Assembly (NCBI GenBank): GCA_951406725.2
Contig: OX597816.1
Span: forward strand, 58,900,001-58,964,000
Reading direction: 5' to 3'
Length of the DNA stretch: 64,000 bases
Source: Octopus vulgaris
Taxonomy: Eukaryota
Shown: piece by piece, positions 1,790 through 63,607 of the stretch
Position numbering within the stretch: position 1 is the first letter of the stretch
How the letters are laid out: the number at the start of each line of letters is the position of its first letter
Notes under the pieces: model-generated
Told to the model about the DNA's origin: nothing
What the model saw: the letters and a program-made list of their open reading frames with translations, nothing else
The model's database searches: none
Program-made: the position numbers and the translations under genes

Positions 1790-1995
1790 TCGAAGTTTCG
1801 AGCGTGTCGGACAAAATGCTTATCGGCATTTCTTCCGGCTCTTTACGTACCAAGTTCAAATTCTACCGAGGTCGACTCTGCCTTTCATCCTTTCGGAGTC
1901 GATAGAATAAGTACCAGTTGAGTATGGTAACTGATAGGCCCCCACCCCTAAAATTGCCGGCTTTGTGCCAAAATTTAAAACAATTATTATTATTA
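1790..1995 (+). mobile_element. Degraded SINE family S2 copy
   Basis: GTTCAAATTCTACCGAGGTCGACTCTGCCTTTCATCCTTTCGGAGTCGAT core shared with 59110-59360. Confidence 0.7.
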
Positions 1996-11273: not shown

Positions 11274-11325
<52 letters not shown>

Positions 11326-11327
<2 letters not shown>

Positions 11328-11445
11328 TTCTTTATTAGCCACACAGGGCGGAACACAGAAGGGGACAAAATACAATGTAGAGCTTTTCTTTTCGGGGGAA
11401 AAAAGAGAAAAATAAAATTCTGATCAAAAGGGAGCGTAAGACAAA
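11326..11445 (-). mobile_element. 3' end of an L1/Tx1-like retroelement inserted in a GA/GACA microsatellite
   Basis: Minus strand GTCCCCTTCTGTGTTCCGCCCTGTGTGGCTAATAAAG; same tail motif as the elements at 40321, ~41117 and 43198. Confidence 0.55.
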
Positions 11446-11556
11446 AAAAAAAAGACAGACAGATAGACAGACGGCCGGACAGATAGATAGACAGACAGGC
11501 AGAGAGACAGACAGACAGGTAGACAGATAGATAGATAGGCAGACAGACAGACAGAC

Positions 11557-13007: not shown

Positions 13008-13109
13008 TATATATCCTTGACCGATCAGTGTTCAGGCTGGGCGGGGCATTAAGTTATTCACAGCACCAGGTTGTTTATAAATAGATTGTAACAAACGACA
13101 TACTAAACC

Positions 13110-13340
13110 TATTTCTTTATTGCCCACAAGGGGCTAAACACAGAGAGGACAAACAAGGTCAGACAAACGTATTAAGTCGATTATATCGACTCCAGTGCGT
13201 AACTGGTACTTATTTAATCGACCCTGAAAGGATGAAAGGCAAAGTCGGCCTCGGCGAAATTTGAACTCAGAACGTAACGGCAGACGAAATACGGCTACGT
13301 ATTTCGCCCGGCGTGCTAACGTTTCTGCCAGCTCGCCGCC
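13110..13340 (-). mobile_element. Full-length SINE, family S2
   Basis: Near-identical to 58261-58491 and 59110-59360; TSD GACATACTAAACC at 13097-13109 and 13345-13357. Confidence 0.9.
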
Positions 13341-13454
13341 AAATGACATACTAAACCGTTATAGATATAGGCAAAACTTGGGTATATACAGAATATGATG
13401 AGTAAGGATTGATACGCGGGTATAGATACAAGGGCGTTTGTGTATAGCGGATAG

Positions 13455-14844: not shown

Positions 14845-16810
14845 TGGCCTATGTTTCACTACCGTATAGCATGGCAGTTCACACACATGCATCATACAGT
14901 CCATCTTTCCCCCTGGGTGAGGGGCCATTAGCTGCCAGCAGAGGTAGGAGCTCCCTGAATTTGCCCAGGCTATTATTACTCTAGTTGCTACACTCGCAGA
15001 GCAATCACCCCCACTACATACTTGGTCGCCTAGGTAGTAGAAAGTGTTTACTACTTCTAGTTTCTTCCCCAGGCATGTAATGGAAGCTGTTTTCTGAACA
15101 CCTTCAGTGTTATTGCCCCACTGCATCTGCCACACACAAGAAATAATTTTCCCAGTTAACCTTCCTTTGATATTGCTGCACCTTTTATGTGTCCATAGCT
15201 TACACCGGGTGCATCGTATGGAGTTTCTACCAATGCCTTTTCTACAGAGGAGTTTGTGATTTGACAGCCTGCACACTAACTAAAACTTTGGTTTTGGCTA
15301 GGTTAACCCTAAGGCCATTCAATTCTAGACTTTGCTTCCAAGCCCTTACCTTTGGCTCCAGTTCCGGCAGTGACTCTGCTATTAGTGCAAGGTCATCAGC
15401 ATAGAGGAGCAGCCTGTCTTGAATTCCTCTGTTATTGCCTGGAGGACTATAATGAATAAGGGGGGCTGAGGACTGATCTTAGGTTGACCCTTACCCCTAC
15501 CCGATATTCTTCACTGTACTCGTTGCCAACCGTCACCTTACTGTACATGGCTTGTACAGCTCTCAATAAACATTCATCCATCCCTAGTCTCCTCATTGAC
15601 CACCAGATAGGGGATTGGGGGACCCTGTCAATGAAAGCCAGGTACAGAGTTTTATCTTGGACTAGCTATTTTTCCTGCATCTGTCTTATCAGAAATATAG
15701 CATCAGTGGTGCTTTCCCCTGGCACGAACCGAAACTGCACCTCATCTAGACTGCCTCTCTCCCTAATTACTTGGGCTATGACCCTCTCCGTGACTTTCAT
15801 TACCTGATCCAACAACTTGATACCTCTGTAATTATTTGTATCTAATGCGTCACCTTTACCCTTGTTAGCAGTTGACTATGGTGCTGCTACACCAGTCATT
15901 GGGTATGACTCCTTCATGTATCACCTGGTTGACTAGGCTATAGCCGACACCGCCAGATATTTTGAGCATCTCTGTGGTGATTCCTGATTGTCCGGGGGCT
16001 TTCCCTGTCTTCATACCCTTAATTGCTTTACCTACCAAGGCACTGTCAATTTAGATAGATAGCTGGTCCCTCTGTTGGGCCGGCATTCAGCAGACTCTCT
16101 TTCTCACATTCATTCACTTTATTTAGCAAACTTTCATAATGGCGTCTCCAAACCTGTCTCTTTGCAGCTTCGTTTAAAGCAAGTGAACCGTCACCCACGA
16201 GGACACATTTCTCTCCTAGGACATCTCGATTCTCTCTCACACACTGTCTGGCAACAGGAAAATACTTCAAGTCTTTGGTCATCACGGCGCAGAACATTGG
16301 CAAATTTTTCATTATCTGCTTCCCCTCTGGCCAAATAAACCTATCTCCTAGCTTCCCTTTTGGCAGTCTGATACAATTCCCTGCTATCACCGGTCTTCCA
16401 GTCCTTCAAAGCCTGTTTCTTTTCCTTACTAGCCCTGTCAACAACATTGTTCCACCACCACATTACCTTGGGTTAAGAGGAAACTTTGCACCATCCACAG
16501 ATCTGGTCACTAGCCATCAAAAGGTTGTCCTGTAGAAACCTCCAGTTGTCTTCCACAGCTTTAAGTAATATGTCTCTCAATCTCTTTTTGCAGGATCCTT
16601 AAGCTTCCAGACCCTTCTCCTCCATTCTGGTCATCTTCTGGGCATCCATTTAACCCTGATCCTGAAGTCGCTAACTACTAATCTATGTTGTGGGGTACAT
16701 TCTTCACCTGGGAAGGTTTAGGCATTTACAAGTAGTCGTCTTTCCTGTTTCCTAGTGAGGATGTAGTCAATTTGACTAGTGTGTCTACCAGATTGGCAGG
16801 TGACTAAATG
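14845..16810 (-). pseudogene. Degraded RTE-clade LINE ORF (APE end, RT, Cys-rich insert)
   Basis: QIDYIL...QHRLVV (APE); YRGIKLL..., STTDAIF..RQ, LLYADDL (~15391-15410); CRKGIGRNSIRCTRCKLWTHKRCS; many stops and frameshifts. Confidence 0.9.
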
Positions 16811-18589
16811 GCCCTGAATATGCTAATCAATTACCATTTAGTAATTATGATACTTCTACAATTGAAAATAATTTTAATAAATAATGAATTTATGTATTGT
16901 GGCACATGATACTTGTCAATTGTCTACATTGTTCACATAAATGCCAGTACCAGGCAGAGGTGGTTTCCAGCAGTAAGAGAAGCTTAAGAATAAATAAATG
17001 GAAATTTGTCGGCAGAACAAAGTTAGTAACCTTAAGTCACCTCTTACACTCTCAGTGTTGTGATGAGAGCCAAGGTACTGAACCGAGAGAGTGTATATAG
17101 TTTGTGTTATTTCATAGTGAAGTTCAAGAGTGTGGGTTGGTTTGTTCATTTGGAATATTTGTTGGTTCTTGAGAGATAGTTATGTTGTTATTGCTGCTGC
17201 ATTATCTTATTTTATCACACTGGTACCACATATTTTAGGCCATTATCGCAATAGTGGTGGTACTACTATATTGGATGCAAACCATGTTACAGCATCTGGC
17301 GACAAAAGGCTCGAAGATCACGTAGCATGTAATTCACCTGCAAACTAAGCATTAAATTCTTTCTTACCAGATTGTCAGCCTTCTGAAATTCCCTTGTCCA
17401 TGTTATTTCCTCTGCAGCCATCCACACATTTTATTCAAGATCAACTACGTCAATCTTACCAGTTTTGAAGGCACAGCTCTTGTCTCAGAAGGAATGCAAA
17501 AGGCAAGGATACAGCCCCCTTTATCCAGCCAAATTGTTCAAATAAAATATGGAAAAAAAAACCCTAACACCCACTACTATTCCTGTGAATTAGTAAGCTG
17601 TAAACTATATCAAACTGAGCCCACATCATCATCTTTAACATGTCTCACTGCTAGAACCTATTACTAAATATTTTATCCAATCATTTATCTCCAGAATGGC
17701 AGCTTCTACATGGAATCACATTCTCATCAGACATTAATTTACACAAGTTGAAAAAAGACATCATCTACATTCACATTAACAGTTTAGGAAAGCCTGCAGA
17801 TGTTCTCTTGCTCGCACTTTATATTAATACAAATAAGAATTTCTAACAAAGGTACATAGCCAAAAATTTTATAGGAGGAAATAATGTCAACTATATTGAC
17901 CCACTCCTTATCTAGTGTTTTATTTCATTGCCCACAAAAAAAAGAGAAATGTGAAGTGTGTTGACAATGCTAACTAACCCTTTCATGACTTAAATTCTGA
18001 TAGGTAAACTGTTTCATTAAATCTCTAGTGCCAGTTTAGCATACAGTAAACGTGGCCATTTACAATTTAGTATGCTATCTGTTGCCAATTCTAGACCATA
18101 GCTCTAACCCTAACATAAACCATAACAAGGCATAGTCTACATAGTTACAAGCAGATAGACACTCTACTGACCTTCTCACCTTTATCTCATAATTTTGTTG
18201 ATCCAAACACCTGATTAATAATTAAAGAAAGTAGTTATTTTACTTAGACTGTTCAAATTGATTATGCGTATTTCATTGGGAACATGACTATAAAAGAATT
18301 TAGCATCAAATTTGATTTCAACTTACATTTTCCACAGCTATTCTAACAACAGTGTAATAATACTTCTGTAACCTCTCAGAGGAAACATGACTCCTCCTTC
18401 ACTCCTCTCCACCATTCATTTATGGTTTGAGAATAATTCTATAATTGTTGTAAACTGGAATGGAACTTACTCTCTTTCTGCTCACAGCCATTCTCCATTT
18501 AATGCTACTTGGTTTGCATCTTTTAGAGAGATAGATTAGATATAATAAACTCAAAGAGCAACTAGAAAGAGAAAGTAGTATCTAACTTA

Positions 18590-22627: not shown

Positions 22628-23252
22628 GAGGTATACTTGCCATCTCAATATGGCTAACCACTAAGGGTGGGTGTTACTGTAGCTTGTAGCCCCAGGAGAA
22701 CATCGTCTCCAGCTGGCTTTAGGCACACTTTCTGTGCCCTTATGGTATTTGCAAAGGGAGGTCATCCATCCCTCGTCAACCTAAGTGATACGCACGGACT
22801 GCACCCACCCTTAGTGGTTAGCCACATTGAGATGGCAAGTATACCTCACATTGTCGTGCAGTTACTGTTTATACCTCGTTCAGAGATTTATTATTGCTTG
22901 CATACAATTTTTCGAGATCGGTGACGAAAAGTTACTGGAAAAACGATAAAAGTATTTGCATTGGGACATCCCTTCATAAAAAACTGGTGATTGTCGTATG
23001 CCGACGACAGGTCAATACCTAGAAACTGCAGTCCGTGCGTATCACTTAGGTTGACGAGGGAGGAATGACCTCCCTTTGCAAATACCATAAGAGCACAGAA
23101 AGTGTGCCTAAAGCCAGCTGGAGACGATGTTCTCCTGGGGCTACAAGCTACAGTAACACCCACCCTTAGTGGATAGCCATATTGAGATGGCAAGTATACC
23201 TCACATTGTCGTGCAGTTACTGTTTATACCTCGTTCAGAGATTTATTATTGC
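22628..23252. mobile_element. 355-bp retrozyme-like unit (about 1.26 tandem copies) plus an inverted partial copy
   Basis: Direct repeat 22804-22896 = 23159-23251; 22628-22803 is the reverse complement of 23027-23202. Confidence 0.8.
22995..23039 (+). ncRNA. Type I hammerhead fold with variant core CCGACGA
   Basis: Stem I CGTATG/CGTGCG; stem II AGG/CCT; GAAAC-TGCA-GTC with palindrome ACTGCAGT. Confidence 0.65.
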
Positions 23253-23269
23253 ATATATATATATATATA

Positions 23270-23465
23270 TCTGAGCGTGGTATAAACAGTAGCTGCACGA
23301 CATCGTGAAGTATATTTGCCGCTTAAGTGTGGCTAGCCCTTAAGGGTTGATGCTACTGTAGCTTGTAGCCTCAGGAAAGCATCTCCAGCTGGCTATTGAC
23401 ACACCTTCTGTGCCCTATCAGTATTTGCAAAGGGAAGTCATCTTTTCCATCTCCAGCCTGATGTA
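23270..23465 (-). mobile_element. Diverged relative of the 355-bp unit
   Basis: Similar to the reverse complement of 23050-23240. Confidence 0.7.
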
Positions 23466-28811: not shown

Positions 28812-28860
28812 GGTGAGAAAGTTGGTGTGTGAAAGCACATGGTTGGATATATAGAAAATA

Positions 28861-29262
28861 GAAAAGAGTGAAAAAACTACAGAAGGCTTGTTTTATAAGG
28901 TTAAAGAATATATTTAAGTCGTTATGTTAGAAAAATGTTATAAAATTTTGCATATAGTAACATAGTTTTTGGAGAAAGTACCGGTTTCGTGTTAACTTTT
29001 CAAATTTCTCAAATGTCTTTATCTACATCGTGTCATGTCTTTTTATGCATAACGAAGACATGAACGAAGACATGCATAACGAAGACATGACACGATGTAG
29101 ATAAAGACATTTGAGAAATTTGAAAAGTTAACACGAAACCGGTAATTTCTCCCAAAACTATGTTACTATATACAAAATTTTCTAACATTTTTCTAACATA
29201 ACGACTTAAATATATTCTTTAACCTTATAAAACAAGCCTTCTGTAGTTTTTTCACTCTTTTC
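28861..29262. repeat. Near-perfect palindrome, ~190-bp arms
   Basis: 28861-29050 is the reverse complement of ~29072-29262; spacer made of AACGAAGACATG repeats. Confidence 0.9.
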
Positions 29263-29264
29263 AC

Positions 29265-29315
<51 letters not shown>

Positions 29316-30721: not shown

Positions 30722-31597
30722 CGTGGTCTGATCAATAAGTATCTGGACTGTTACCATAGTAATGAAGCTAAAGCACGCAGAGTGAAGCTGCTGGACAAAC
30801 GTTGACCTTGAACTCTGCTTAACGTTCTAGCTCACTTTCGCTGTTTACTGAAGTGCTTGAAAGGAAGGTGTGTAGCATGTGCTCGTCGCAATGGCTATAA
30901 CAGAGAAAGTTGAGCAGAGAATCTGCATAAAATTTTGTAAAAAGCTTGGCGGTACCTGCTCAGAGTCCTATGCAATGTTTTCAAAAGATTTTCATCGTTC
31001 TCGACACAATCAATGAGATTTTGTGCAACTGAAACCCGAGTGTCCTTTTGGTCAGATGAAAGCAGTTTTGGCACAAATTTGGCAGACGCGTGTCTCACAC
31101 CCAAATCTTCAGTGATAATGGACTGAACTGCACCGTAACTAATTTGGACATCTTCTGATAACTCACGGATGGTGATTTGACGATTTCTCCTCACAGCTGC
31201 ATGCACATCTGCGATGTTTTTCTCAGTTCTGCTTGCTGTGGATCTCCAAGAACGTTCGTCACTATTGACATTTTTCCGGCCATCTTGGAAACGTCTGAAC
31301 CACTCGTACACGTGTATGCGGCTCATATACTTCTTTCTATACACTTTCGGCAACTTTGCGCAAGCCTCTGAGCAGGTATCGCCATGATAGCTTTCTCTGT
31401 CATGGTCAATACGACGATCACACGCTACACACCTTCCTTCCAAGCAATGCTGTAAATAGCGGAAGTGATCTAGAACGTTAAAACTTAGTGCGCATGCACA
31501 GCAGAGTTCAAGTTCAATCTTTGCCAAGCAGCTTTACTCTGAGTGCTTTAGCTTCGTTACTATGGCAGCAGTCCGGATACTTATTGATCAGATCTCG
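30722..31597 (-). mobile_element. mariner derivative with two inverted 5' ends
   Basis: TIR CG(T/A)G(G/A)TCTGATCAATAAGTATC at both ends; HTH ...VYEWFRRFQDGR...VPKLLS on the minus strand; EQRICIKFCKKLG on the plus strand. Confidence 0.85.
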
Positions 31598-38266: not shown

Positions 38267-38305
38267 GGCGCAGGAGTGGTTGTGTGGTAAGTAGCTTTGC
38301 TAACC

Positions 38306-40357
38306 TTCGTCTGAGTTAGACGTGTTATTTTGCTGCTCCGGATGCCACGTTGTTTCAACGTGAACTATTGAACATTTGACTCGACTACAGGTAGGCGTTT
38401 TGTATTTTTGGGAGCGAAGTGAAGTTTATTGCTTGCATTTAATGTTTTTTAGCATTAAATATTTTTTTAGCAGATAATAAGGCTCCACTTTGCTCCGGAT
38501 ATAATTTTTCTGCCTGTTGTCGAGTGTAAAGAAAATTGTGTTTTTGAGGCGGCATAGTCCGTCTGCAAAAATTATTTTTGAAATTGTCGTTGTGTTATCC
38601 ACGGGATTTACCAAGGATTATTTTACCAAGGTGTTTCACCAACAGTGTATTTGGCCTGGAATACAATTTTTGGCCGAAAAAGTGAACAAAAAAAAAGAAA
38701 AATTAATTCCTTTGTCTGAATTTGAACTCTCTTTCTCCGTCTATCATTCATTTGTAAAAAAAAAAAAAGAACTTTTTTTGAACTGCCATTTTAATTTTAT
38801 TTCTTCCCTTCTGTTGCTTTTTTCATTCTCCTTTCTGTGTCTAATTTATTTTGTAACATTTTGAACTGTTTTTCTTACGTTATGGCAAGGAATTTCACTG
38901 TGTGGGAATTGACACCTCCCAAAAAGTACTTAAAGGAGCTCGAGGACAGAACCGTGGTGTTGAGGACATATTCGAGGTCGCTCGATACCATAATGGTTTT
39001 CCCAAAAGCCACCATTATGAACGAGCTGGCAGATTATATGCCAGCCGTTAAATATATTCAACGGGGAGCCAAATACGCAACGATTTGGTTGCTGTTTGAC
39101 TCCCCTAAAGCAGCTTGCGATTTCGCGAGTAAGCCCATTGAGGGCGAAGAGATTCTGTTTCTCCCAAGCTATAGGGGGAAAAAATTGATACGATTATGGG
39201 TCTGCGGCCTGTCGCCCGGCTTTGAGCCCGAGTGGGTGGAAGATTCTATCCGACGGGGTCTGAGTGGTGGTAGTGCCAAGATCCTGAACGTGAGAGTGCA
39301 GCCAGCGGCCGATTGGGAAGGGTCAAAGGCTACTTTGACTCTGTGGACTCAGTCGGCCAAGAGTTTGGTTTTGCCGGACTTCTTGAGGATGGCCGGGTCC
39401 AAGTATCCGGTGATACTGGAGGGACGCCCCCCCCCCCAAGTGTCACCTGTGTTCGGAGACCGGCCACATTAAGAACTGCCCCAGGGACCAGAGCAGGATC
39501 CTGGAGAAGTTAATATCAGAGCCTCTCCCTGCCCCACCAATGGAGGGAGAGAAACAAAGTGAGGAAGCGGCAACTTCCTCAACAAAAAGAAAAAGAAAAG
39601 TGGGGAGCAATGGTGACCCACCAAAAGAACCGGAGGCTGCGGAAGAAAAAGAGGACCCGGTGCGTACAACACCGGAACCTCAACCTCCCGAGGCCCAGCG
39701 TAAAAAGAAAAATCAAAAGAGGAACGGGACGCCACCAGCGGACTGTAACACCCAGATGGCGTCTCCCATGTGTCCTCCGGCGATTGTGATGCCGGAGAAA
39801 TTTTATGTAGTCCTCTTCCATAAAGGAGGCACTGTAGAAAACGAAATAGGTAAGATGAGGAAGAGAAACCAATGGGAGGGACTTCGGTCCTGCATGGAGT
39901 ATCCCGAGTGGCCTTCGCAGCTGGCTGCGGAGGTCCTACTCGAAAATGATATGTGCAGGATCGAGAATTCTTTCCCGGAGGATCTCTTGCAAGTCATACC
40001 TGTATGCGGAAGCCTGACGATGGACGATTGCGTCATTAAAGCAAGAGAGTTCATCGGTCGGGTAACGTAAAATTGTAATTGTGTTACATTGTGACAGAGG
40101 TTTATTGCCTCTGAAGAGACTTTTAAAAGTGTAAATTGTAAATTGAAATTTTTGTGAAAATTGTTTGAATTTTTGTAATTTTTGAAATTTTGTAAATTAT
40201 TGAAAAAAAGAACATTGTTTTAGAGAAGCAAAAGTCGGCGGGCGCTTTCTGACTTCTCCCATCACCATCTTCATCAACCACCATCATCATCCATTAATGT
40301 CCTTGTCCAGCCCGTAGCTACTCTGTGTGCTGCCCTAGTGGCAAATTAAATGAAATA
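38306..40357 (+). mobile_element. Element A: near full-length ORF1-only L1/Tx1-like retroelement
   Basis: Flanked by target copies at 38289-38305 and 40358-40373; AGACGTG at 38318; one ORF; ~290-bp 3'UTR ending in AATAAA. Confidence 0.8.
38882..40070 (+). CDS. Gag-like ORF1 (RRM-like folds, CCHC knuckle, unknown C-terminal domain), ~395 aa, one frameshift
   Basis: Track ORFs 38837-39472 and 39540-40070 join by removing one C from the 11-C run at 39427-39437: EGRPPPKCHLCSETGHIKNC. Confidence 0.75.
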
Positions 40358-40373
40358 AAGTAGCTTGCTTACC

Positions 40374-41153
40374 TGAAAGCTGCGGGAGAGGAGAACCCGG
40401 TGCGCACAGCTCCGGAACCTCAGCCTCCCGTGGCCCAGGGCAAGAAGAAAAAGAAAAAAAAGAGAAACGGAGCGTCGCCAGCGGATTGCTACACGCAGAC
40501 GGCGGTTCCCGAGTATCCCGGGTCCTCTCAGGCGGGTGTGCCACCTGAGGGACAATTCGTGGAAGATTTTGTGCTCCTCTTTTCTAAAGGAGAAAAGGTG
40601 GAAAGCACCGTAAGAAAAGTGAGAAAGAAAGGACGTTGGGAGATACTCCGAACCTGTACGGAGAACCCCGAGTGGCCTTCGCAGTTGGCTGCGGAGGTCG
40701 TGAGAAGGGCTGATCTACACGGGATCGTGGGTTCCTTCCCAGCGGACTCCTTCGAGATTATACCTCTGGACACTGACCTGACCAGCGAGTATTGCCTCAA
40801 TGAGGCAAGAGCGATGGTCGGCCGTGTCACATAGGTTGTGTAACATCTTTGTAACATGTGGAAGAGGAGGTTCATTGCCTCCTCTAAAATTTGTAAAATT
40901 TGTAATTGAATGTTAATTTTAACATTTTTGTAACAGGTTGAAGAGAAGGTTCATTGCCTACTCTAAAATTTGTAATTTGTAATCATTGTATTAAATGTAA
41001 TTATTGAACATTGTTTTAGAGAAGCGAGAGTCGGCGGGCGCTTTTTGACTTCTCCCATCACCATCTTCATATACCACCACCATCATCCATTAATGTCCTT
41101 GTCCAGCCCGTAGCTACTCTGTGTGCTGCCCTAGTGGCAAAATTGTTGAAATA
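40374..41153 (+). mobile_element. Element B: 5'-truncated paralogue of element A, ORF ends at 40834
   Basis: Shares PVRT.PEPQPP, PEWPSQLAAEV and GRVT-stop; near-identical last ~140 nt; followed by target copy 41154-41169. Confidence 0.85.
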
Positions 41154-41294
41154 AAGTAGCTTGCTTACCAACCACATGGTTCTGGGTTCAGTCCCACTGC
41201 GTGGCACCTTGGGCAAGTGTCTTCTACTATAGCTTCGGGCCGCCCAAAGCCTTGTGAGTGGATTTGGTAGACGGAAACTGAAAGAAGTCCGTCG

Positions 41295-42250: not shown

Positions 42251-42725
42251 GTGTGTGTGTATATATATATATGAGTACTCAGCATCTTAAATCTGTTGTA
42301 ATACTTACAACATTTAATGAAATGATGTAGTACGAAACGATCGTACCAAATTACCGGCGTAATTTGATTATAATCACCCCACGGATTTTCATGGATAACA
42401 CCATACAAAATTCTGGTGCATCTAAATTAAGTACCACATTCATTTGAATCTAAATTTTTGCTGAACTTATATATATATATATATACCAACCTCCCCTCTC
42501 CACGCCACCAGTGTTATCCAAGGGAAAGACAAAGGTCGATACAGCTTGGCACCAGTGACGTCGCAACTCATTTCTACAGCTGAGTGAACTGGAGCAACGT
42601 GAAATAAAGTGCCGTGCTCAAGAACACAACACGCAGCCCGGTCCGGGATTCGAGCTCACAACCTCACGATCGTAAGCTCGACGCTCTAACCACTGAGCCA
42701 TGCGCCTTCACATATATGCGTCTAC

Positions 42726-42788
<63 letters not shown>

Positions 42789-43141
42789 CGCATATATGTG
42801 AAGGCGCATGGCTCAGTGGTTAGAGCGTCGAGCTTATGATCGTGAGGTTGTGAGCTCGAATCCCGGACCGGGCTGCGTGTTGTGTTCTTGAGCAAGGCAC
42901 TTTATTTCACGTTGCTCCAGTTCACTCAGCTATAGAAATGAGTTGCGACGTCACTGGTGCCAAGCTGTATCGACCTTTGTCTTTCCCTTGGATAACACTG
43001 GTGGCGTGGAGAGGGGAGGCTGGTATGCATGGGCGACTGCTGGTCTTCCATAAACAACCTTGCCCGGACTTGTGTCTAGGAGGGTAACTTTCTAGGTGCA
43101 ATCCCATGGTCATTCATGACCGAAGGGGGTCTTTACCCTTT
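42088..43141. mobile_element. CORE-like tRNA SINE S4: full copy 42800-43141 (+), inverted copy 42483-42726, internally deleted copy 42088-42205
   Basis: A/B boxes; GTGTTCTTGAGCAAGGCACTT...CACTCAGCT core; flank CACATATATGCGTCTACA shared by all three. Confidence 0.85.
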
Positions 43142-43194
43142 ATGTTTATATGTGTGTGTGTGTGTATTTTGTTAGGAAATTATAAATTATAATG

Positions 43195-44845
43195 ATTTTT
43201 ATTACAGCCACAAGGGCCTAACACAGAGGGGACAATACAAAGACAGACAGGACAGCATAGTGGGGACAAAAACCTAAAACGAATGTAAAATGAAAAATGG
43301 TAATACGTACAATGAAATCGATGAAGATGAAATGGCTGCATGTGCCCCACTCACATGCAGCACCATTTAAACGTTCTTACTGTCCGTTTTATAATCCATG
43401 TTTTTAGTCTCTTTGAATCTTTTGTTTTACTCTTTTGGGTTTTTTTTTTTTCATAAACACAAGTTACTCTCTCTCTTCTTTTAAATTCCTTTAATATACG
43501 GTTCTTAATTCACTGATGATAGTTCTGTCGAACTCTACCTGGAAAGTTGGTGGTTCGAGTCTGCATTTTTTCTTTCCACCTGCTGTATCTTTCTTTGTCT
43601 ATTAGAATCACCTTCACACTCTCAGCGTAACTGTCCTTTGGCAACTTCACCCTTATGACCGATTTCATCTTGCTTAATCATCTTTTCCGTGCATACATTT
43701 TGTGTCGTATTTTACAAAACACCAATTGTACTTTCTCCGTTCTTGCTCACTGTGTTCTGCTCTTGGCGTCACTCTACCCATTTCAGTCGCTGTCGCTTCT
43801 TCCTCTCGCTGCTGTTCTACTTCATGGGTTAAACGACCCTCCAGTCTGCCTGCTTCCACCTGTTCCTCCTCCATAACTTCCTTCTCAACCTCCTTTTCAA
43901 CCTCCTTTACAACTGCTTCCTCTATCACCTTTATTCCATTTTTCTTTTTCTGTCTCTCGGACGGAGAGCCCTTTCTTTTTCTTTTTTTTAACAACTTCGA
44001 ATCCCTCCTCTGCCTCTTTCTCCTCCTCCTGTACCCCATCATTCACTTTCTCCTGCTCCTCCGACTGTTCTATTTCTTGTTCTCTTTCTTCTCTCTGGAG
44101 GCACCTCGCCTTCATGTGGCCTTTCTCGCCACACAAATAACATCTGGGAGGCCTGCCCTCCGCCACTACTCTCAATCTCACATCTTCTGGCAGAATTATT
44201 TCTTCTGGGATCCTGATCCTATCACTATCAGTTGCCTGAAGTGACATCTCGATCCCGTATCCCCATCAATACACCTTTCTCGTTCTTGTCACTCTTAGCA
44301 TCCTGGCATTTTCTTCCATATTGTGTAATATCGCTGCAACCAGCAATGTCTCCTCTAATTCTGATGGTATTTTTCCTATCCTCACTCGAAAAACTCTTCT
44401 GCCGCAGTAAGTTGGTAGGAAAACCCACTCTTCCGATTTTGTGGCATCAGTGGAGTGCAATACCGCTTCGACGTCGCTATGAAAACGCACCTCCACTGTG
44501 CCATATTTTCTTCCTCTTGTTATAAATGTCGTCTTCTTTTAATTACTTGTAATCTCTTCTCAATTTCTTCAATTGGTGCTATTTCAATTTTCTTTGACGA
44601 TACTTTCAGAGTTTTATAAATAATGGTTTTTCTCTTTACACCATATATTAAATCGAGTGTAGACTTCAATTTTAGATTGTGGCCTTCTCTTTCTAAAAGG
44701 TTGCCGCATTCCATCAACCTTTCCGACTCGATTTTCACCTTTCGTACTTCCAAATCCTGGACTGCAACACCTTTCCAGTTGCATCCACATAACTGTGGCT
44801 CTTGGCTGGTTCAGTTTGCGTAGCCCTTCTCGTTGGTTCTTCCAT
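43195..44845 (-). mobile_element. Element C: degraded ORF1-only L1/Tx1-like retroelement
   Basis: FLPTYCGRRVFRVRIGKIP and EGRPPRCYLCGEKGHMKARC (CX2CX4HX4C) align with element A; frameshifted; ~300-bp 3'UTR ending in AATAAA at 43198-43203. Confidence 0.8.
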
Positions 44846-45540
44846 AACGCTCGGAGTTTACAGTAACAGCATTTCCATTATTGTCTTCAAAAATGTAAGG
44901 ACCAATGATGGCAGCTTTTCCCCCAGCACACCAGACCGTCACTTTTGGGCCGTGCAGTGGTCTTTCGTGTAGTTCTCTCGAATTTTCAAGTGCCCAATAA
45001 CGACAGTTCTGTTGATTCAGCATGCCACTGAGAAGAAAATGAGCTTCATCACTCATTAACATTTGCCTCAAAAATTACTTCCATCTGACGTGCGAAGTTA
45101 AGCCGCTCTACATAGTCCCATGGTTACAACTGTTGCCCAATGACCTATTTGTATAGGTGGAAATGCAGGTCTTCATGCAAAATACGCCGATTACAGATGC
45201 CAAGTTCAGTGGAATTCCTCCGAGCAGAGCGATTAGGATTCCGCATCAAAGCTTATCTGACGCGTTCCACATTTTTCGGGGTCCGTACCGTTCGTGGCGA
45301 CCCAACCAGTTTCCTATTCATTAGTGTACCTCGTGTACGAAGTGCATTCATCCAACGTAAGATTGTGTTACAGGTAAGAACAGCCTGATTTCGGTCAATG
45401 TTGAAGTAGCGCCTAAACTCACGCTGAACTGCTGTGACAGACTCGTTATTCTTCACGTAGCAATCATAGACAAACACACGATGCTCTATCGTTCTCAACG
45501 CCATGGCCTCTGAAAAGAAAAAAAATGCTAAGACACTATG
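44846..45540 (-). pseudogene. Tc1/mariner-superfamily transposase 5' part (DUF4817-type HTH, rosa/DD41D-like)
   Basis: EHRVFVYDCYVKNNESVTAVQREFRR...; SDEAHF.LSG..N.QNCRYW...PLH.PKVTVWC...IIGPY.FE...TVNSERY. Confidence 0.85.
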
Positions 45541-46313
45541 GACCTAATGGTACCTGTCAGACATATATCCCTCCCCTTGGGGCTGAATAATAGCTGGGTA
45601 TGGTAATAAATATTGTCAAGATTTTATGAGTAGTATTAAGTAACTGTCTATAAAGGAGGCTAGGTAGGGGAAGACCCCAAATCAAGGTGTTAATTACTAG
45701 TTAAAGGGGCAAGACGCTAATAAAACCTGTAATGTTAATACAGAGGAAATTTTATCATAAGGTATTATGGGTGATTACTTATAAAACAATATTGTTATGT
45801 TGTATAAAGATAAAATTTAAGATTATCAAAAATGATATAGCCAAAATAGATAAAATGTATATATATTCCAATTTTTAACATTAGAAAGGAAAGATTACAT
45901 AGAATTAGTTTAATATTCATTCATGTACTTAATTATTTACTTATTAGGTGGTTTCTAAAAAGACTGCTCTGGGTATTTACTTATGGAATACTGGGGCGAT
46001 AAACCATGCTATCTATATATTAATTATAAGCTAAGAATTAGAAAAAAATCGGAAAAAATAAAAGTTGTATACAGATACACACACATATATTTATCTATAT
46101 GCACACATGCAAAAATACACAAATATTTATACGTTATTATGGATATGTTATAATCAACTCTCATAGACTTGAGTAACTAGAAAGTTCATATCTCTATTTA
46201 AGAACAGTAACAACTTATAAGGGATAAGTGTTTAATAGATAAGAGGTTAATAGATAAAGATATCAAAATAAGAAAACAAAATAAGAAATTATAGAGAATA
46301 GTAAGAAAATATA

Positions 46314-46716
46314 TTGGGTTGGCAACTAAGTTCCCGCCGTTTTTTTATATTTTGGAATTTATTGCGTTTTTAAATTTTGAAATCTATTTTTTTCGAGAAT
46401 TCCATTTTTGAATCATTTTGAAATCGTTTCTTTTTTTTCTCTAGTTAATTTTAGATAATTTTTGATTATTTTCAGATCATTAAAATGGAATGTCAAGTTA
46501 AGAAAAACGAGCATTTTCGATACCTCCTTTTTGCTTTTAATCAAGGTTCTAAGGCCGCAAAGCTGCTCGCGACATTTGTGCTGTGTATGGAGAGGGAGCC
46601 ATAGCTGAAAGAACCGCTCGTGATTGCTATGCCAAATTCAAAAATGGAAATTTTGACCTCAAAGACGCACCTCGTTCTGGTCGTCCAGTTGAGTTCGATG
46701 AAGAGCGATTAAACCA
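46314..46716 (+). mobile_element. mariner 5' end (TIR plus HTH)
   Basis: TA-TTGGGTTGGCAACTAAG TIR; AARDICAVYGEGAIAERTARD.YAKFKNGNFDLKDAPRSGRP. Confidence 0.85.
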
Positions 46717-47115
46717 GGAGAACCTAGTCATGGCTGTCAAACAATTTCTGCGACCACATCACTCTTAACATCCGGCCACCTAACTTCCCAGACTGCAATC
46801 CCCTTGATTATTATGTGTGGGGCGCAGTTGAGCGAGAGACCAACAAAACTTGTAACACCAAAGATGAACTGAAGGCAAGGATTATGGTAACATTCACCAA
46901 CTTAAACAAGGAGACCGCCCAGAAGAGTTGCAGGAGATTCCGAAGTCATCTGGAAGCCGTGGTTGAAGACAATGGCGATTTTATTGAATAAATTTACTCT
47001 TTAGTATTCAAGATATTTTTATGTAACTTTGGTAAATATATCTGTTAAAATGAGATGTCAGAGTTATTTTCCTTTTTGCGTAATTTAGACGACAGTTTAT
47101 TCACCGCACCCTGTA
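46717..47115 (+). mobile_element. DD37D/maT-like transposase 3' end with TIR
   Basis: SPDCNPLDYYVWGAVERETN...CRRFRSHLEAVVEDNGDFIE-stop; ends CGCACCCTG-TA. Confidence 0.8.
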
Positions 47116-47339: not shown

Positions 47340-47385
<46 letters not shown>

Positions 47386-47607
47386 TACTAATATAGGATG
47401 AAGTTTTTTCTCTACAGAAAAGAATTCCATCAAGAAATGTGGCAGCATATTAAAATACCTTTACGGTTAAAATTATAAACAACTTATAAGAAAGGGCTAA
47501 AGAAAAATTATTTCAAAGCCAATATGCTGATTTTCCACATATAATCTACACGCAAGATTGAATTGAAGTCGGGCAAGCTAACCTTTAGAACATTTAAATT
47601 TCGTTAT

Positions 47608-47667
47608 CTCTATATTGAATCAATTTCGGAATTAATCTCATAAAAGATTTATTCGTCTTCAGTAGAG
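47608..47667 (-). ncRNA. Type I hammerhead fold (inverted copy)
   Basis: CTCTA-CTGAAGA-stem II-GAAA-TTGATTCA-ATA-TAGAG on the minus strand. Confidence 0.7.
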
Positions 47668-48182
47668 CTTACGAGAGAATATAAATAAGATACTTACATG
47701 CGCCTATGGAAAAAGCCGAAGCAAAAAAACATAAGTACATTTAAGTACCCCAGTTATATCTAAAAATATAGAGATAACGAAATTTAAATGTTTTAACGGT
47801 TAGCTTGCCCGACTTCAGTTCAATCTTGCGTGTAGATTATATGTGGAAAATCAGCATGTTGGCTTTGAAATAATTTTTCTTTAGCCCTTTCTTATAAGTT
47901 GTTTATAATTTTAACCGTAAAGGTATTTTAATATGCTGCCACATTTCTTGATGGAATTCTTTTCTGTAGAGAAAAAAACTTCATCTTATATTAGTAGTAG
48001 ACTTATGACTACCAGCTACAGAGACTGGTAACCACTATAATCTGTAGTGGCGAACAGTCAACACGTTGTTCTGAGGCTGACCAAAGAATTTTTATTTTTA
48101 GATATAACTGGGGTACTTATGTTTTTTGCTTCGGCTTTTTCCATAGGCGCATGTAAGTATCTTATTTATATTCTCTCGTAAG

Positions 48183-48242
48183 CTCTACTGAAGACGAATA
48201 AATCTTTTATGAGATTAATTCCGAAATTGATTTAATATAGAG
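48183..48242 (+). ncRNA. Type I hammerhead fold
   Basis: Stem I CTCTA/TAGAG; CTGAAGA 48188-48194; stem II GAAT.AATCT/AGATT.ATTC (closing C.C mismatch); GAAA; ATA triplet at 48235-48237. Confidence 0.7.
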
Positions 48243-48386
48243 ATAACGAAATTTAAATGTTCTAACGGTTAGCTTGCCCGACTTCAGTTCAATATTTCTG
48301 TAGCGTGTAGATTATATGTGGAAAATCGGCATATTGGCTTTGAAATAATTTTTCTTTAGCCCTTTCTTATAAGTATATATACATAT

Positions 48387-48508
48387 AAAGATTGAATTTC
48401 CCTCCGGAAGCAGTTCCGCAACCATAGGATGAATTTGATAAGATAAAATGCTTAAATAGTCTTGACTATAAATTCTGCCATGAGGGAAAACCATTGAGCC
48501 GGCGGATT

Positions 48509-48558
<50 letters not shown>

Positions 48559-48910
48559 AATCCGCCGGCTCAATGGTTTTCCCTCATGGCAGAATTTATA
48601 GTCAAGACTATTTAAGCATTTTATCTTATCAAATTCATCCTATGGTTGCGGAACTGCTTCCGGAGGGAAATTCAATCTTTCAGGATGATAAGACACCAAT
48701 TCACACAGCTAAAGTTGTTATTGAATGGCACGAGGAACATTCTAGTGAAGTTGAACATGTTTATCTGGCTACCACAGTCCCCAGGTCTCAATATTATTGA
48801 ACATTATGGCGCATATCCTCCACCATCATCACTACAAGAACTGGAGACTGTTTTTGCTGAAGGCGGTCCTAAATTTTAAGGTGTTTCCATTATTTTGTCT
48901 AACCCCAGTA
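48387..48910 (+). mobile_element. Tc1-type transposase 3' fragment with a 127-bp inverted duplication around (TA)n
   Basis: FQDDKTPIHTAK...WLPQSPGLNIIEH; 48387-48513 is the reverse complement of 48554-48680. Confidence 0.85.
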
Positions 48911-56558: not shown

Positions 56559-58260
56559 TTGTGCGCGCGCGCGTATTTAGGTATATATGTATATGTTTCC
56601 GCGTGTGTACGTGTTTCTGAACATAATTCTTACAAAATTTTAGCACAGAGCCAAAATTAGAATTTTCTGGGGGAGAAGAAAGTCGATTACATCAGCCCTG
56701 GTGCTCAATTGGTAGTTATTTTATTGACCCCTAAAAAAATGAAATGCAAAGTAGATCTCGGAAGTATTTGAACTCAGAACGTAAAGAGCCAGAAGAAATG
56801 TCGATAAACATTTTTGTGCAGTTCGGTAGTGATTCCGCCAGCTGTCTTTAGGTATGTCTTGCCTTGGGCGTGTCTTGGGCGTTGTTAAACCTCGCAGAGC
56901 TTAATGACGTAGTGAGAATGTGTACCACTCGGAGCAGCTCTTGAGTTTTCCCCCACCCAACCCCGATAAACAACCTGTACAAACTTATACAGCAGAGCCA
57001 CAAGTGTCGCTCTCATAAAAGAGTTACCTGGTTGGGTGCGGACCGCCCTTACACATCCAACCTTAGCTATGGTATTTGCGGAGCCCAACCCTCTGTTAGT
57101 CTGTCCATAATCGATTTCTTGTAGAAAAAAAGAGACACGCAGGCAGAAGGGAAGGAAAAAGGAAGGAAGGAAGGAAGGAAGGAAGGAAGGAAGGAAGGGG
57201 AGAAAGGAAGGAAGGAAGGAAGGAAGGAAGGAAGGAAGGAAGGAAGGAAGGAAGGGGGAAGGAAAGGGAGAAAGGAAGAAGAAAAAAGAAAGAAACAAAG
57301 AAAGAAAGAAGAAGGAAAGCAAGAAAGAAAGGAAGGAAAGAAAAAATGAAAGAAAGAAAGGGAGAAAGAAAGAAAGAAAGAATGAAAGAAAGAATGAAAG
57401 AAAGAAAGGAAGGAAGAAAGAAAACGTATGGGGTTCATTCCTATCCAGGTCTGGCCACAGTAGATTTCTTCCAGAAAGAGAAATGAACGGCGAGAAAAGA
57501 AAGTGAGAAAAGAGAAAAATAGTGCATGTATAGAATATTGTAAAACACTTCGTCTTCGTAAGCAACATAAATGGGACCAGTTGCACTAATTTCAATTAGT
57601 TATATTCATGGATTTTAGCCAACATGGTTGTCTCTCATGCCTAGGAGACACGAGCACTTTCACAGAAATGACGGGCTTCTAGTTTCCGCCTCCAAAATGC
57701 ACTCACATTGATTGTGGTTAGCCCGAGGTTATAGTTGAAGACACATGCCAAGGTGCCGCACAGTGGGACTGAATATGAAACCACGTGGCTGGAAAGCGAA
57801 TTTCTTACCCATATAGCCATATTAACCAACACGGTTATGTTCCTAAATACTAGCTAACAAGGTTATATCTATAGATATACAAATATACACAAATATATCG
57901 GTAGTTATTAGCCTACACGATTATATCTATAGCTATTAACACAGATATATCTGTAGATATTCGCCTACACAGATATAACTATTGCTAGCAATTAACCTAC
58001 ACATTTATATATATAGTTATTAACCTACACAGATATGTGAAGCCTACACAATTAATGTCTATAGATTTTAACCAGGTGTGAGACAATACAGACATATCTA
58101 GCCTACACAATTAATGTCTATAATTTTTAACCAGGTATTAGACAACACAGTTATATCTATTGATAGTTACCAACAAATAAATGTTTTCGTGTATAACGGT
58201 ATTGAATCAAATGTGTCATCTCGCGAGTGAGCGAGCGAGCGCTAATGGTAGTATGTAACC

Positions 58261-58491
58261 TATTTCTTTACTACCCACAAGGGGCTAAACACAGAGAGGA
58301 CAAACAAGGACAGACAAACGGATTAAGTCGATTATATCGACCCCAGTGCGTAACTGGTACTTATTTAATCGACCCCGAAAGGATGAAAGGCAAAGTCGAC
58401 CTCGGCGGAATTTGAACTCAGAACGTAGCGGCAGGTGAAATACCGCTAAGCATTTCGCCCGGCATGCTAACGATTCTGTCAGCTCGCCGCC
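58261..58491 (-). mobile_element. SINE S2
   Basis: Full copy; GTATGTAACCT repeated at 58251 and 58499. Confidence 0.9.
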
Positions 58492-59109
58492 CCTCCTTGT
58501 ATGTAACCTGACACCCATACTGTTGCGCGATAGGGTCGTCGGTGTCTTAAGTGAAGAAGTATATCAAAGGGCGGATGAAATCAGGACGGTCAACAGCCAG
58601 TCAATGTTGTGTAATTGTGCATAGACTATATTTCGGGTGGATTACGTGAAGGAAACCCAACCATCATTGTTGAAGTTTCAACGGGCAGAACGGTAATATA
58701 AACAACGTCGCTGTGATCTGAGATCTCTCTCTCTGATCTCAGATCACGGTGAGACACAGGGACCATCCTGATCATTCCACAGCAATTCTGACATACCCCA
58801 CTCATCCTTGTCACTTTGCAACTAGTTCAGGAAGTCAGAGACTTCACGCACAATCTGCCTTTTTTATAGTGTAATTTCACTGCAAGTCAAGACTTGAACA
58901 GACAGCAGAACTTTCGTTGTGACAGATGACGTATTACATGAGTCTGCAACAATGAAATACTGTCTTGTAGTATAGTACACGGACATGTAGTATAGAGGAG
59001 AGGGTTCACGTATCTTTTGTTGCCTATGTAATTGCATTCTCTATTGTGGTGGAGTCATGAAAATACTCGGAAACTAAAGACGAACAACATATCAATAACA
59101 GTTGAAGAC

Positions 59110-59360
59110 GGCGGCGAGCTGGCAGAAACATTAGCTGGCAGAAACATTAGCACGCTGGGCGAAATGCGTAGCCGTATTTCGTCTGCCGTTACGTTCTGAG
59201 TTCAAATTCCGCCGAGGTCGACTTTGCCTTTCATCCTTTCGGGGTCGATTAAATAAGTACCAGTTACGCACTGGGGTCGATATAATCGACTTAATCCGTT
59301 TGTCTGTCCTTGTTTGTCCTCTCCGTGTTTAGCCCCTTGTGGGTAGTAAAGAAATAGGTA
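59110..59360 (+). mobile_element. SINE S2 (3' part also at 63476-63610; degraded copies at 37000-37120 and 56640-56845)
   Basis: B box GAGTTCAAATTC; internal 16-bp duplication CTGGCAGAAACATTAG. Confidence 0.9.
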
Positions 59361-59735
59361 CTCTGTCACTGGATTGAAACAATTCCGGCTGACTTCGCGT
59401 CTTCTGTCTACAAACATATTGTATAAAAAGACAAGGTGTTTATAAATGTCAAATACGTACAATGAAGGCTAAAATCTATAGATATATTCTACAGTATATA
59501 GCAGCTTTAAAGAAGCACTTTGTAAAGAAAATTTATCAGACCTTAAAAAATAAGATCAATTCTAAATATAGAGAACTAATTGGCGTAACAATCAAATAGT
59601 TAATGTCATTAGTGATGTGTTGAGGTGCACCTGGATGATATAAAGACCATCACTTGGTGGAGCGAGGTGGGGTGTAAATCACCAATAATTTTCCATTCAC
59701 TGTAGACAACTTTCTCATGAGGTCTGGGCAACTAA

Positions 59736-62799: not shown

Positions 62800-63607
62800 C
62801 ACATACACACATGTAAATATTATAACTGATTGACTCAGCTCTTCATTACTTGATGTTTCGTGGATGTAAGGTGCATCCACATCATCAGATGTTCGAAGTC
62901 AGAGTAGAGAGAATTTAAAAGAAAAAGAAAATAGCTTCTAGTTATTTAAGCTTCCATTAAGCAGTTCAGGTCACTATTTTTTTCTTTTTGTTTTGTTATC
63001 ATAATGGCATCGATTCTATTATCGGTAGGGCCACATGGTGAACAAACATGTCATTCAGGACACATCGTCGGCATTATGCAGAATGTAACATTTCAGCGAT
63101 ATAAGGTTTTTACATTGTATGCTACTGCAATAGGTATTGGCAGACAACATGATGGCATCAGTCATGCTAGTATAACTATCGCTTGTTATCCCTTCGACTT
63201 CATATATCCCCATAACTTCCTGAAAAATGTCTACAAATGCAATTTTGCAGAGATAGGTTTTCGAGATTGCAGATTACGATTATGTCTTCTTTTTTTTTAC
63301 TACTTTCAGTCATTGGACTGCGGCCATGCTGGGGCACCACCTTGAATTTTTAGTTGAATAAATGAATAGATCCCAGTACTTTTTTAAGCTTCGTACTTAT
63401 TCTGTCGGTCTCTTTTGCTGAACCGCTGATTTACAGGGACGCAAATACACCAACACCTAGGGCAGAGAAGCTCATTTGCCTTTCATCCTTTCGGGGTCGA
63501 TTAAATAAGTACCAGTTACGCACTGGGGTCGATATAATCGACTTAATCCGTTTGTCTGTCCTTGTTTGTCCTTTCTGTGTTTAGCCCCTTGTGGATAGTA
63601 AAGAAAT

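What the first reader, a model, noticed from the sequence alone, without database searches (positions are those of the whole stretch)
43195..44845. Third, distant ORF1-only element shares its 3' tail with SINE S2
Seen: the tail of C (TGTCTGTCTTTGTATTGTCCCCTCTGTGTTAGGCCCTTGTGGCTGTAATAAAAAT) aligns over ~55 nt with the S2 tail (TGTCTGTCCTTGTTTGTCCTCTCTGTGTTTAGCCCCTTGTGGGTAGTAAAGAAAT; 58261, 59300, 13110, 63550). Known: stringent LINEs mobilise SINEs through a shared 3' end. Inference: S2 and C use the same L1/Tx1-type partner; tail sharing is less commonly described for the L1 group than for CR1/L2/RTE.
Basis: partly seen in the sequence, partly recalled or inferred. Interest (0 to 1): 0.7.

Follow-up and report, generated by a model that had tools for sequence, protein, structure and literature searches.

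The report
Octopus SINE shares half-LINE's tail
In an octopus genome, a common short repeat and several defective jumping genes that keep only their RNA-binding protein end in the same short sequence with a small hairpin, which suggests they borrow the same kind of copying enzyme, although that enzyme's gene was not found here.

Summary
Confirmed and extended. Element C (43196-44845, minus strand) is a decayed ORF1 (relatives model as two RRM folds plus one CCHC knuckle; named relatives are Octopus bimaculoides proteins), then about 300 nt of 3' UTR and no ORF2. Its last 53 nt match four S2 SINE tails at 77-81%, with 0 of 1000 shuffles reaching the score; the match stops where the S2 body begins. 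The 'truncated S2 insertion' reading fails: public contigs show diverged C paralogues with ORF1 joined to the tail and no ORF2 between; a further piece (D, 11325-11452) has the tail behind non-S2 sequence; and the related ORF1-only elements A and B carry a weaker version inside their target-site duplications. Most tails hold a 3-4 bp hairpin with two-sided base changes. Best reading: a LINE-derived 3' handle, taken up by S2 through tail exchange and read in trans by an L1/Tx1-group enzyme. No RT-coding element with this tail was found (no genome held; the window's only RT belongs to an RTE-like element with another tail), so the partner's clade rests on ORF1 type, TSD length and target preference. 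A new variant of a known kind.

The parts
43196..44845 (-). Element C: decayed ORF1-only non-LTR element, 5' UTR missing, no target-site duplication; the 3' boundary may reach 43188
   Evidence: a paralogous contig aligns down to 43188 (table 8)
43494..44845 (-). ORF1 remnant in several frames (44738-44845, 44523-44810, 43900-44538 with one internal stop, 43677-44042, 43513-43677, 43494-43598): RRM-like region, knuckle, charged linker, conserved C-terminal domain
   Evidence: start and end match the 356-aa relative P0003 by eye
44101..44145 (-). Single CCHC zinc knuckle
   Evidence: Pfam zf-CCHC E=0.0018, 18.7 bits, cut-off 20.8
43196..43493 (-). 3' UTR of C
43335..43361 (-). Perfect 10-bp hairpin in the 3' UTR, upstream of the shared tail
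   Evidence: z -1.54 for the 81-nt stretch, 16 of 200 shuffles as stable
43197..43249 (-). Tail shared with S2 and D
43207..43217 (-). Terminal hairpin GCC-CTTGT-GGC
13097..13357 (-). S2a SINE (13111-13340) with a 13-bp target-site duplication (13345-13357 and 13097-13109)
58262..58491 (-). S2b SINE with an 11-bp target-site duplication
59110..59355 (+). S2c SINE, full length, no duplication seen
63475..63607 (+). S2d SINE, 5'-truncated, followed by (TTA)n; outer hairpin pair broken
11325..11452 (-). D: T-rich, UTR-like piece ending in the same tail, no S2 body, followed by (TC)n; 5' limit uncertain
38306..40357 (+). Element A: ORF1-only relative of C with a distant form of the tail (hairpin TGCC-CTAGT-GGCA) directly before the duplicated target
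   Evidence: C-family profile hits A at in-window E 1.5e-8 and 1.7e-10
40374..41153 (+). Element B: 5'-truncated relative of A at the same target, same tail
41154..41169 (+). Last copy of the 14-16 bp target-site duplication of A and B (others at 38291-38305, two edits, and 40358-40373), in the head of another SINE family
   Evidence: uninterrupted head at 55346
1801..1990 (+). S2e: S2-like head and body with a different tail that also holds the hairpin (GGC-TTTGT-GCC)
56620..56830 (-). S2f: as S2e; hairpin of 9 pairs around TCTGT
44846..45543 (-). Mariner-like transposase fragment cut off at C's ATG (flank, not part of C)
   Evidence: DUF4817 HTH E=8.8e-8; 35-40 contigs per run continue otherwise at 44845 (table 7); 'mariner-like' is recalled

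Best explanation
C is a decayed copy of a multicopy, non-autonomous non-LTR family that encodes ORF1 only (the HAL1 plan), most likely from the Tx1 side of the L1 group. Its last 53 nt are the family's own 3' end, a pyrimidine tract, CTGTGT, a small GC hairpin with a YTNGT loop and a short A-rich end without a long poly(A). The tRNA-like SINE S2 gained this end by tail exchange. Shown: the shared sequence, its link to ORF1 in other copies, two-sided changes in the hairpin. Inferred: an autonomous LINE ending in the same tail supplies endonuclease and reverse transcriptase in trans, grips the hairpin on the RNA and primes at the nicked target; S2, C, D and A/B use that enzyme or close relatives of it.
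For: Tail match far above shuffles and confined to the end. Contigs of 4 runs from 3 studies: X2 record 8 covers ORF1's end (43527-43650, 9 other letters), 71 replaced letters, then 43188-43472 (29 other letters, 25 gaps); the ORF1-to-UTR part of that locus is listed in all 4 runs, while a contig across the window's own mariner junction differs at only 6 of 333 letters, so it is a paralogue. X4 record 14 joins 43757-44212 to 43228-43389; a joint 43231 to 44102/44108 is listed for X1, X2 and X4. D carries the tail without S2 body and is closer to C (45 of 60) than to S2 (36-41 of 56-59). A profile built from the A and D tails alone finds all 4 S2 tails (E 5.7e-5 to 1.6e-3) and C (E 0.0027); in A and B the tail lies inside the duplication. 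Hairpin scan: 9 hits, 8 in these tails, against a mean of 0.93 and a maximum of 4 in 40 shuffles; the outer pairs read G-C in C, A, B, D, C-G in S2a-c, and the middle pair flips in S2e/f. ORF1 type: model of relative P0024 has two RRM-like domains (pLDDT 72.5; best Foldseek hit IMP3 RRM12, E 1.3e-4); 32 of 85 relatives hit zf-CCHC, 6 of 85 zf-CCHC_4; RRM/CCHC variants fit the Tx1 clade (PMC5203782 passages). TSDs of 11-16 bp and A/B's repeated use of one site in a SINE fit Tx1 target preference (PMC4494074 passages). O. vulgaris has 13 recently active L1-Tx1 families, 421 insertions, 2.29 Mb (PMC13282606).
Against: No RT-coding element with this tail was seen, and no ORF1 relative could be tied to an ORF2 (none of 34 scanned relatives has an endonuclease or RT family). 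RRM plus CCHC ORF1s also occur outside the L1 group (recalled), no relative hit a Pfam RRM family among the 25 families shown, and the Atlas hits to ZCCHC3-type clusters score 0.88-0.89, a lead only. The hairpin motif was defined after seeing C, S2 and A; it is not unusually stable (z +0.07 to -2.02) and is absent from A's minimum-energy fold, 1 of 6 tails folded; S2d breaks its outer pair. Over their whole 3' regions C and A/B are not significantly alike (133 and 105 of 1000 shuffles); only anchored 65-nt windows give 9 and 12 of 1000. S2e/f tails match the others by the hairpin only (273-997 of 1000 shuffles). C has no TSD.
Confidence: 0.58

Rival explanations
1. The tail is a true LINE handle shared by C and S2, but the enzyme comes from another clade (CR1/L2, I/Nimb or Dong-R4): either this ORF1 belongs to that clade or the ORF1-only elements took a foreign tail.
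For: Known mollusc SINE partners are CR1, CR1-Zenon, L2 and Nimb (PMC11481361 passages); CR1 and Dong-R4 are recently active in O. vulgaris; ORF1-only elements are known from the CR1 and Jockey clades too (PMC5786205 passage); S2d and S2e end next to (TTA)n and C's end is followed by an AT-rich stretch that could be a decayed repeat tail.
Against: One knuckle after two RRMs, Atlas leads to ZCCHC3-type and plant-L1 clusters, 11-16 bp TSDs and site preference point to L1/Tx1; S2a, S2b, A and B end at their TSD with no repeat tail; the RTE-like element of this window has a different end.
Confidence: 0.2
2. The tail is conserved by descent or as a 3'-end formation signal, and the enzyme recognises RNAs loosely, as mammalian L1 does.
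For: Weak folding energies; tails differ by 20% or more; an AATAAA-like end is present in several copies.
Against: A SINE with a tRNA-like head has little use for a Pol II signal yet keeps the tail; no long poly(A) lies between tail and TSD; pairs change on both sides.
Confidence: 0.09
3. The direction is reversed or the tail is a landing site: an ancestor of C captured an old S2 end, or C-family elements insert into S2 just upstream of its tail, so every copy is followed by it.
For: Tx1 elements do target other repeats and A/B do so here; paralogues followed by the tail fit this too; C's 5' flank is lost, so it cannot be checked.
Against: In A and B the related tail is inside the duplication; C shows no A-rich end at 43250; C shares tail letters with D that S2 lacks; loose ends show other upstream sequences joined to the tail (table 7).
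Confidence: 0.1
4. A 5'-truncated S2 copy happened to land behind this one C copy.
For: S2 is abundant (4 close copies in 64 kb) and truncated copies exist (S2d).
Against: Paralogues carry the tail; C's tail is 77-81% like S2 while S2 copies are 88-98% alike; D and A/B carry it without S2.
Confidence: 0.03

Closest known systems
HAL1 (half-L1), HeT-A and Ag-Sponge: ORF1-present non-autonomous LINEs (PMC5753468 and PMC5786205, passages)
   Same: ORF1 followed directly by a 3' UTR, no ORF2; must be moved in trans.
   Different: Those derive from mammalian L1, Jockey and CR1; this ORF1 is of the RRM-CCHC type in a mollusc and shares its end with a SINE. No Tx1-derived case is named in the passages read.
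L1-clade pairs with a shared tail: maize ZmSINE2/ZmSINE3 with LINE1-1_ZM, Chlamydomonas SINEX-3_CR with L1-1_CR (PMC3472496 passages, PMC3747384 passages and Table 1)
   Same: Shared last 45-80 nt, hairpin with variable stem and compensatory changes.
   Different: Plants and an alga, with the autonomous LINE in hand; loop UCU and flank CGAG there, YTNGT loop here; here an animal, and the partner is not yet found.
SINEU with Tx1-Mar in crocodilians (PMC4494074, passages and sections 10-11)
   Same: A SINE thought to be moved by Tx1; Tx1 elements that prefer other repeats as targets.
   Different: That link rests on shared targets; the paper states no Repbase LINE matches the 3' half of SINEU-1. 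Here the link is a shared tail, and the head is tRNA-like.
Octopus CORE-SINEs OR1 and OR2 (named in PMC4824008 and PMC4758252 passages; the 1994 paper not seen)
   Same: Octopus, tRNA-like head, about 230 nt; the middle of S2 looks CORE-like (recalled, no call).
Stringent L2/CR1 pairs such as eel UnaL2-UnaSINE1 (PMC3747384 passages) and bivalve SINE-LINE pairs (PMC11481361 passages)
   Same: Shared 3' end of 35-61 bp at 72-95% identity in bivalves, the same range as here; tail exchange between SINE families.
   Different: Partners there are CR1, CR1-Zenon, L2 and Nimb; 'Tx1' does not occur in that paper's main text.

Membership tests
ORF1-only non-autonomous LINE (HAL1 plan) | ORF1 followed by 3' UTR with no ORF2 | tested here: met
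   Window copy and paralogous contigs that bridge ORF1 to the UTR with 71-79 replaced letters or a deletion
ORF1-only non-autonomous LINE (HAL1 plan) | Multiple copies with that structure | tested here: met
   At least three other arrangements listed (X2 record 8, X4 record 14, joint 43231-44102/44108); two of them are internally deleted; only part of the tables was shown
ORF1-only non-autonomous LINE (HAL1 plan) | Target-site duplication around a complete copy | tested here: inconclusive
   None for C, whose 5' end is lost; present for relatives A and B
ORF1-only non-autonomous LINE (HAL1 plan) | Derived from an autonomous element with the same ORF1 and 3' end | not testable with these tools
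   No genome is held for this window and no genomic context comes with the protein hits
Tx1 clade (L1 group) | RT domain groups with Tx1; APE endonuclease | not testable with these tools
   C has no ORF2 and no linked ORF2 was found
Tx1 clade (L1 group) | Type I ORF1 (RRM plus CCHC) | tested here: met
   this feature is not unique to Tx1
Tx1 clade (L1 group) | Target-sequence preference | tested here: inconclusive
   A and B share one site in a SINE head; 3 of 4 S2 copies are followed by AGGT; C and D flanks differ
Stringent SINE/LINE pair | Shared 3'-terminal sequence confined to the end | tested here: met
   between the SINE and a non-autonomous element
Stringent SINE/LINE pair | Terminal stem-loop with compensatory changes | tested here: inconclusive
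   Two-sided changes at 2 of 3 pairs and 9 hits vs 0.93 expected, but motif chosen after the fact, weak energies
Stringent SINE/LINE pair | Autonomous RT-coding LINE with the same tail; tail needed for transposition | not testable with these tools
   Needs an assembly and an assay
tRNA-derived CORE-SINE (OR1/OR2) | tRNA-related head with A and B boxes | tested here: inconclusive
   Box-like motifs by eye; ARAGORN 0 genes; no tRNA among 5 weak Rfam matches for 58200-59500
tRNA-derived CORE-SINE (OR1/OR2) | CORE domain; identity to published OR1/OR2 | not tested
RTE clade as partner | Tail equal to the 3' end of the local RTE-like LINE | tested here: not met
   The RT element at about 14580-16830 ends in another sequence plus (GAT)n and is not among the tail hits; other RTE families were not seen

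The most novel reading that the evidence does not exclude
Octopus Tx1-type LINEs recognise their RNA stringently through a small YTNGT hairpin, and this one handle has fed a whole guild of parasites: several ORF1-only families, truncated UTR pieces and both tail types of the abundant CORE-like SINE. It would be an animal L1-group case of SINE tail sharing and a candidate engine of the octopus SINE expansion.
Probability: 0.35. Interest if true: 0.7.

Novelty: new variant of a known kind. Interest (0 to 1): 0.5.

Why it matters
SINEs are 11.6% of the O. vulgaris genome (PMC13282606) and tRNA-Core families are main contributors (PMC8967140), yet the passages read name no LINE that moves them. 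A tail shared with Tx1-like elements gives a direct search handle for that LINE. It also bears on an open question: whether stringent 3'-end recognition was ancestral in the L1 group (PMC3472496), so far argued from two plant SINEs and one algal SINE. The general mechanism, SINEs borrowing LINE tails, is long known.

Tried and rejected
An exact tail pattern found 0 matches in viral, metagenome and prokaryote contigs, and P0003 found no relative in viral contigs; these collections are not expected to hold octopus DNA, so this is no evidence. A search for ORF1 fused to a longer protein found none among 7999 candidates of 1092-3115 aa and one chimeric RGS model among 3251 candidates of 374-2000 aa. 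145 of 186 stop-free frames of the window were scanned with Pfam (the 41 left out lie mostly over A, B, C and SINE copies): 2 RT hits, both in an RTE-like element whose end differs. No RNA holder was listed. Summed contig depth is higher over the tail and UTR than over ORF1 (X1: 4945-9030, 976-2501, mostly 120-810), a hint of truncated copies or further tail-sharing elements, but the tool states depth is no copy number, so it is not used as evidence; 889 loose ends and 2667 pieces were not shown, so an ORF2 junction could be among them. The C-terminal ORF1 domain found no clear fold match (Foldseek best E 0.16; the VIA list was filled by a coiled coil; no usable Atlas hit). The ninth hairpin hit at 61144 is not found by the tail profile and is taken as chance. 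MAFFT shifts S2 by one column in the hairpin, so pairs were read anchored on the loop. Nine literature searches returned no paper describing this octopus tail or an ORF1-only Tx1 family; Repbase entries, Ohshima and Okada 1994 and 2005, Bao and Jurka 2010 and the supplement of PMC13282606 (listed, not read) were not seen and may bear on novelty.

Full report
Setting. The window is animal DNA rich in simple repeats. The named relatives of C's protein are Octopus bimaculoides entries, 6 of the 7 hits, at 45-73% identity, so the source is taken to be an octopus. No whole genome is held for it.

The observation. C runs 43196-44845 on the minus strand. Its frames give a broken ORF1 from an ATG at 44845 to about 43494, with one CCHC knuckle (E 0.0018); start and end agree by eye with the 356-aa relative P0003. 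About 300 nt of UTR follow. The last 53 nt align with the tails of four S2 copies at scores 56-61, reached by 0 of 1000 shuffles in each case; identity is 44-46 of 57-58 columns, against 49-54 of 55-56 among S2 copies. The 55 nt upstream are unrelated (25 of 57). C has no target-site duplication, and its ATG abuts a mariner-like fragment, whose usual continuation is seen in 35-40 contigs per run.

Is the tail C's own? Contigs of 4 of the 24 listed runs were laid on 43166-44900 at 80% likeness. X2 record 8 covers the end of ORF1 (43527-43650), 71 replaced letters and 43188-43472, about 10% diverged; the ORF1-to-UTR part of the same locus is listed in all four runs, whereas a contig over the window's own mariner junction differs at 6 of 333 letters. 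So it is a paralogue with ORF1, UTR and tail and no ORF2. X4 record 14 joins the knuckle region to 43228-43389, and a joint from 43231 to 44102/44108 is listed for three runs. No listed piece spans the whole element, and most rows were not shown. Within the window, D (11325-11452) carries the tail behind T-rich non-S2 sequence and is nearer to C (45 of 60) than to S2 (36-41 of 56-59). A and B, ORF1-only elements related to C (in-window E 1.5e-8 and 1.7e-10; profile comparison probability 51%), end in a distant form of the tail directly before their 14-16 bp duplication. That likeness is not significant over the whole UTR (133 and 105 of 1000) and modest in anchored windows (9 and 12 of 1000), but a profile from A and D alone recovers the four S2 tails and C's tail and nothing else besides A, B and D. 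The one-off insertion reading is therefore rejected, and the landing-site reading is disfavoured.

A shared hairpin. A scan for a GC stem of three or more pairs around a YYN(1-2)GT loop gave 9 hits on both strands, 8 in these tails, against 0.93 on average in 40 shuffles (a looser loop gave 13 against 1.32). Stems read GCC/GGC in C, A, B and D, CCC/GGG in S2a-c, and GGC/GCC in S2e, a SINE with the S2 head and body but an otherwise different tail; S2f forms nine pairs around TCTGT. Loose ends in two runs suggest a further GGC/GCC variant (10-12 contigs, agreement 0.67-0.78). Against this: the motif was drawn after seeing C, S2 and A; S2d breaks the outer pair; energies are ordinary (z +0.07 to -2.02) and the hairpin is in the best fold of 5 of 6 tails folded, not in A's.

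Which clade? The ORF1 family is wide: 176 representatives at E up to 0.001. A model of relative P0024 shows two RRM-like domains, a knuckle, a disordered linker and a small C-terminal domain; Foldseek's best hits are tandem RRMs (E 1.3e-4, low TM). 32 of 85 relatives hit zf-CCHC and 6 zf-CCHC_4. Atlas leads point to ZCCHC3-type clusters (0.88-0.89) and, by structure under the bar, plant L1 domains. RRM/CCHC ORF1 variants are described as consistent with Tx1 (PMC5203782, passages), Tx1 elements often target other repeats (PMC4494074, passages), and A and B sit in tandem at one site of a SINE head. S2a and S2b have 13 and 11 bp duplications, S2c shows none. O. vulgaris has recently active L1-Tx1 families (PMC13282606, first of three parts read). 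All this favours Tx1 but none of it is RT phylogeny. The window's only RT hits belong to an element at about 14580-16830 that I read as RTE-like (recalled features) and that ends otherwise.

How it most likely works. An autonomous LINE ending in this tail makes endonuclease and RT. The enzyme nicks the target, binds the hairpin near the RNA's 3' end and copies from the short A-rich end, leaving 11-16 bp duplications. Deletion of ORF2 gave C and A/B, which keep the handle and supply ORF1 protein; a SINE with a tRNA-like head acquired the handle by tail exchange to give S2. The shared tail, its family-wide link to ORF1 and the base changes are shown; the partner, its clade, the direction of transfer and the role of the hairpin are inferred.

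Comparison and novelty. ORF1-only LINEs are known (HAL1, HeT-A, Ag-Sponge; PMC5753468 and PMC5786205, passages). Shared tails are known for 58 SINEs, only 3 with L1-clade partners, none of these in animals (PMC3747384, passages and Table 1; PMC3472496, passages). SINEU is linked to Tx1 by target, not tail. Bivalve partners are CR1, CR1-Zenon, L2 and Nimb (PMC11481361, passages). OR1 and OR2 are octopus CORE-SINEs (PMC4824008, PMC4758252, passages); S2 may be one of them, untested. Term searches of PMC13282606 and PMC9115989 showed no passage on this pairing. Nine library searches found no description of it, but Repbase and the original octopus SINE paper were not seen. Earlier notes of this scan report tail sharing in other genomes as ordinary; they are leads only.

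Verdict. Real, a family property, and a new variant of a known kind. Interest 0.5; 0.7 if the partner proves to be Tx1 and drives the octopus CORE-like SINEs.

Noticed in passing
window 38291-41169 (+): A and B inserted one after the other at the same site in the head of another SINE family, leaving three copies of a 14-16 bp target; an uninterrupted head is at 55346.
   Followed up: partly
window 14580-16830 (-): Decayed RT-coding LINE, RTE-like by recall, with a weak PHD-like hit (E 0.0007) after the RT and a (GAT)n end.
   Followed up: partly
window 11898-12314 (-): Frames resembling a Penelope GIY-YIG endonuclease fragment (recalled; no Pfam hit in the frame scanned).
   Followed up: no
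P0001 (O. bimaculoides, UniRef A0A0L8FRC8): An RGS-domain gene model contains about 240 residues of a C-family ORF1, either a chimeric annotation or an exonised copy.
   Followed up: no
window 43494-43720 (-) and relatives: A conserved C-terminal ORF1 domain of about 87 aa, hit at E below 1e-5 in 16 of 153 fetched proteins, with no clear Pfam family or fold match; A's C-terminal domain is not detected by its profile.
   Followed up: partly
joint 44817 to 43288: All 4 runs list a contig that goes from C's 3' UTR to its 5' end, possibly tandem C copies like A and B.
   Followed up: no
window 1801-1990 (+) and 56620-56830 (-): SINEs with the S2 head and body but another tail: tail exchange within one SINE lineage.
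   Followed up: partly
3' junctions of S2a, S2b, S2c: All three are followed by AGGT, and S2a and S2b have 4-6 extra bases between the 5' duplication and the head; either a target preference or terminal microhomology.
   Followed up: no
window 42486-43142: Two near-identical (98%) copies of a further SINE-like repeat in inverted orientation around a (GT)n/(AT)n run, next to C's 3' end.
   Followed up: no
window 22628-23441, 28847-29275, 47385-48680: Long inverted-repeat or palindromic stretches.
   Followed up: no
window 30898-31533 (-) and 46553-46765 (+): Mos1-type transposase HTH fragments (E 9.4e-5 and 2e-10).
   Followed up: no
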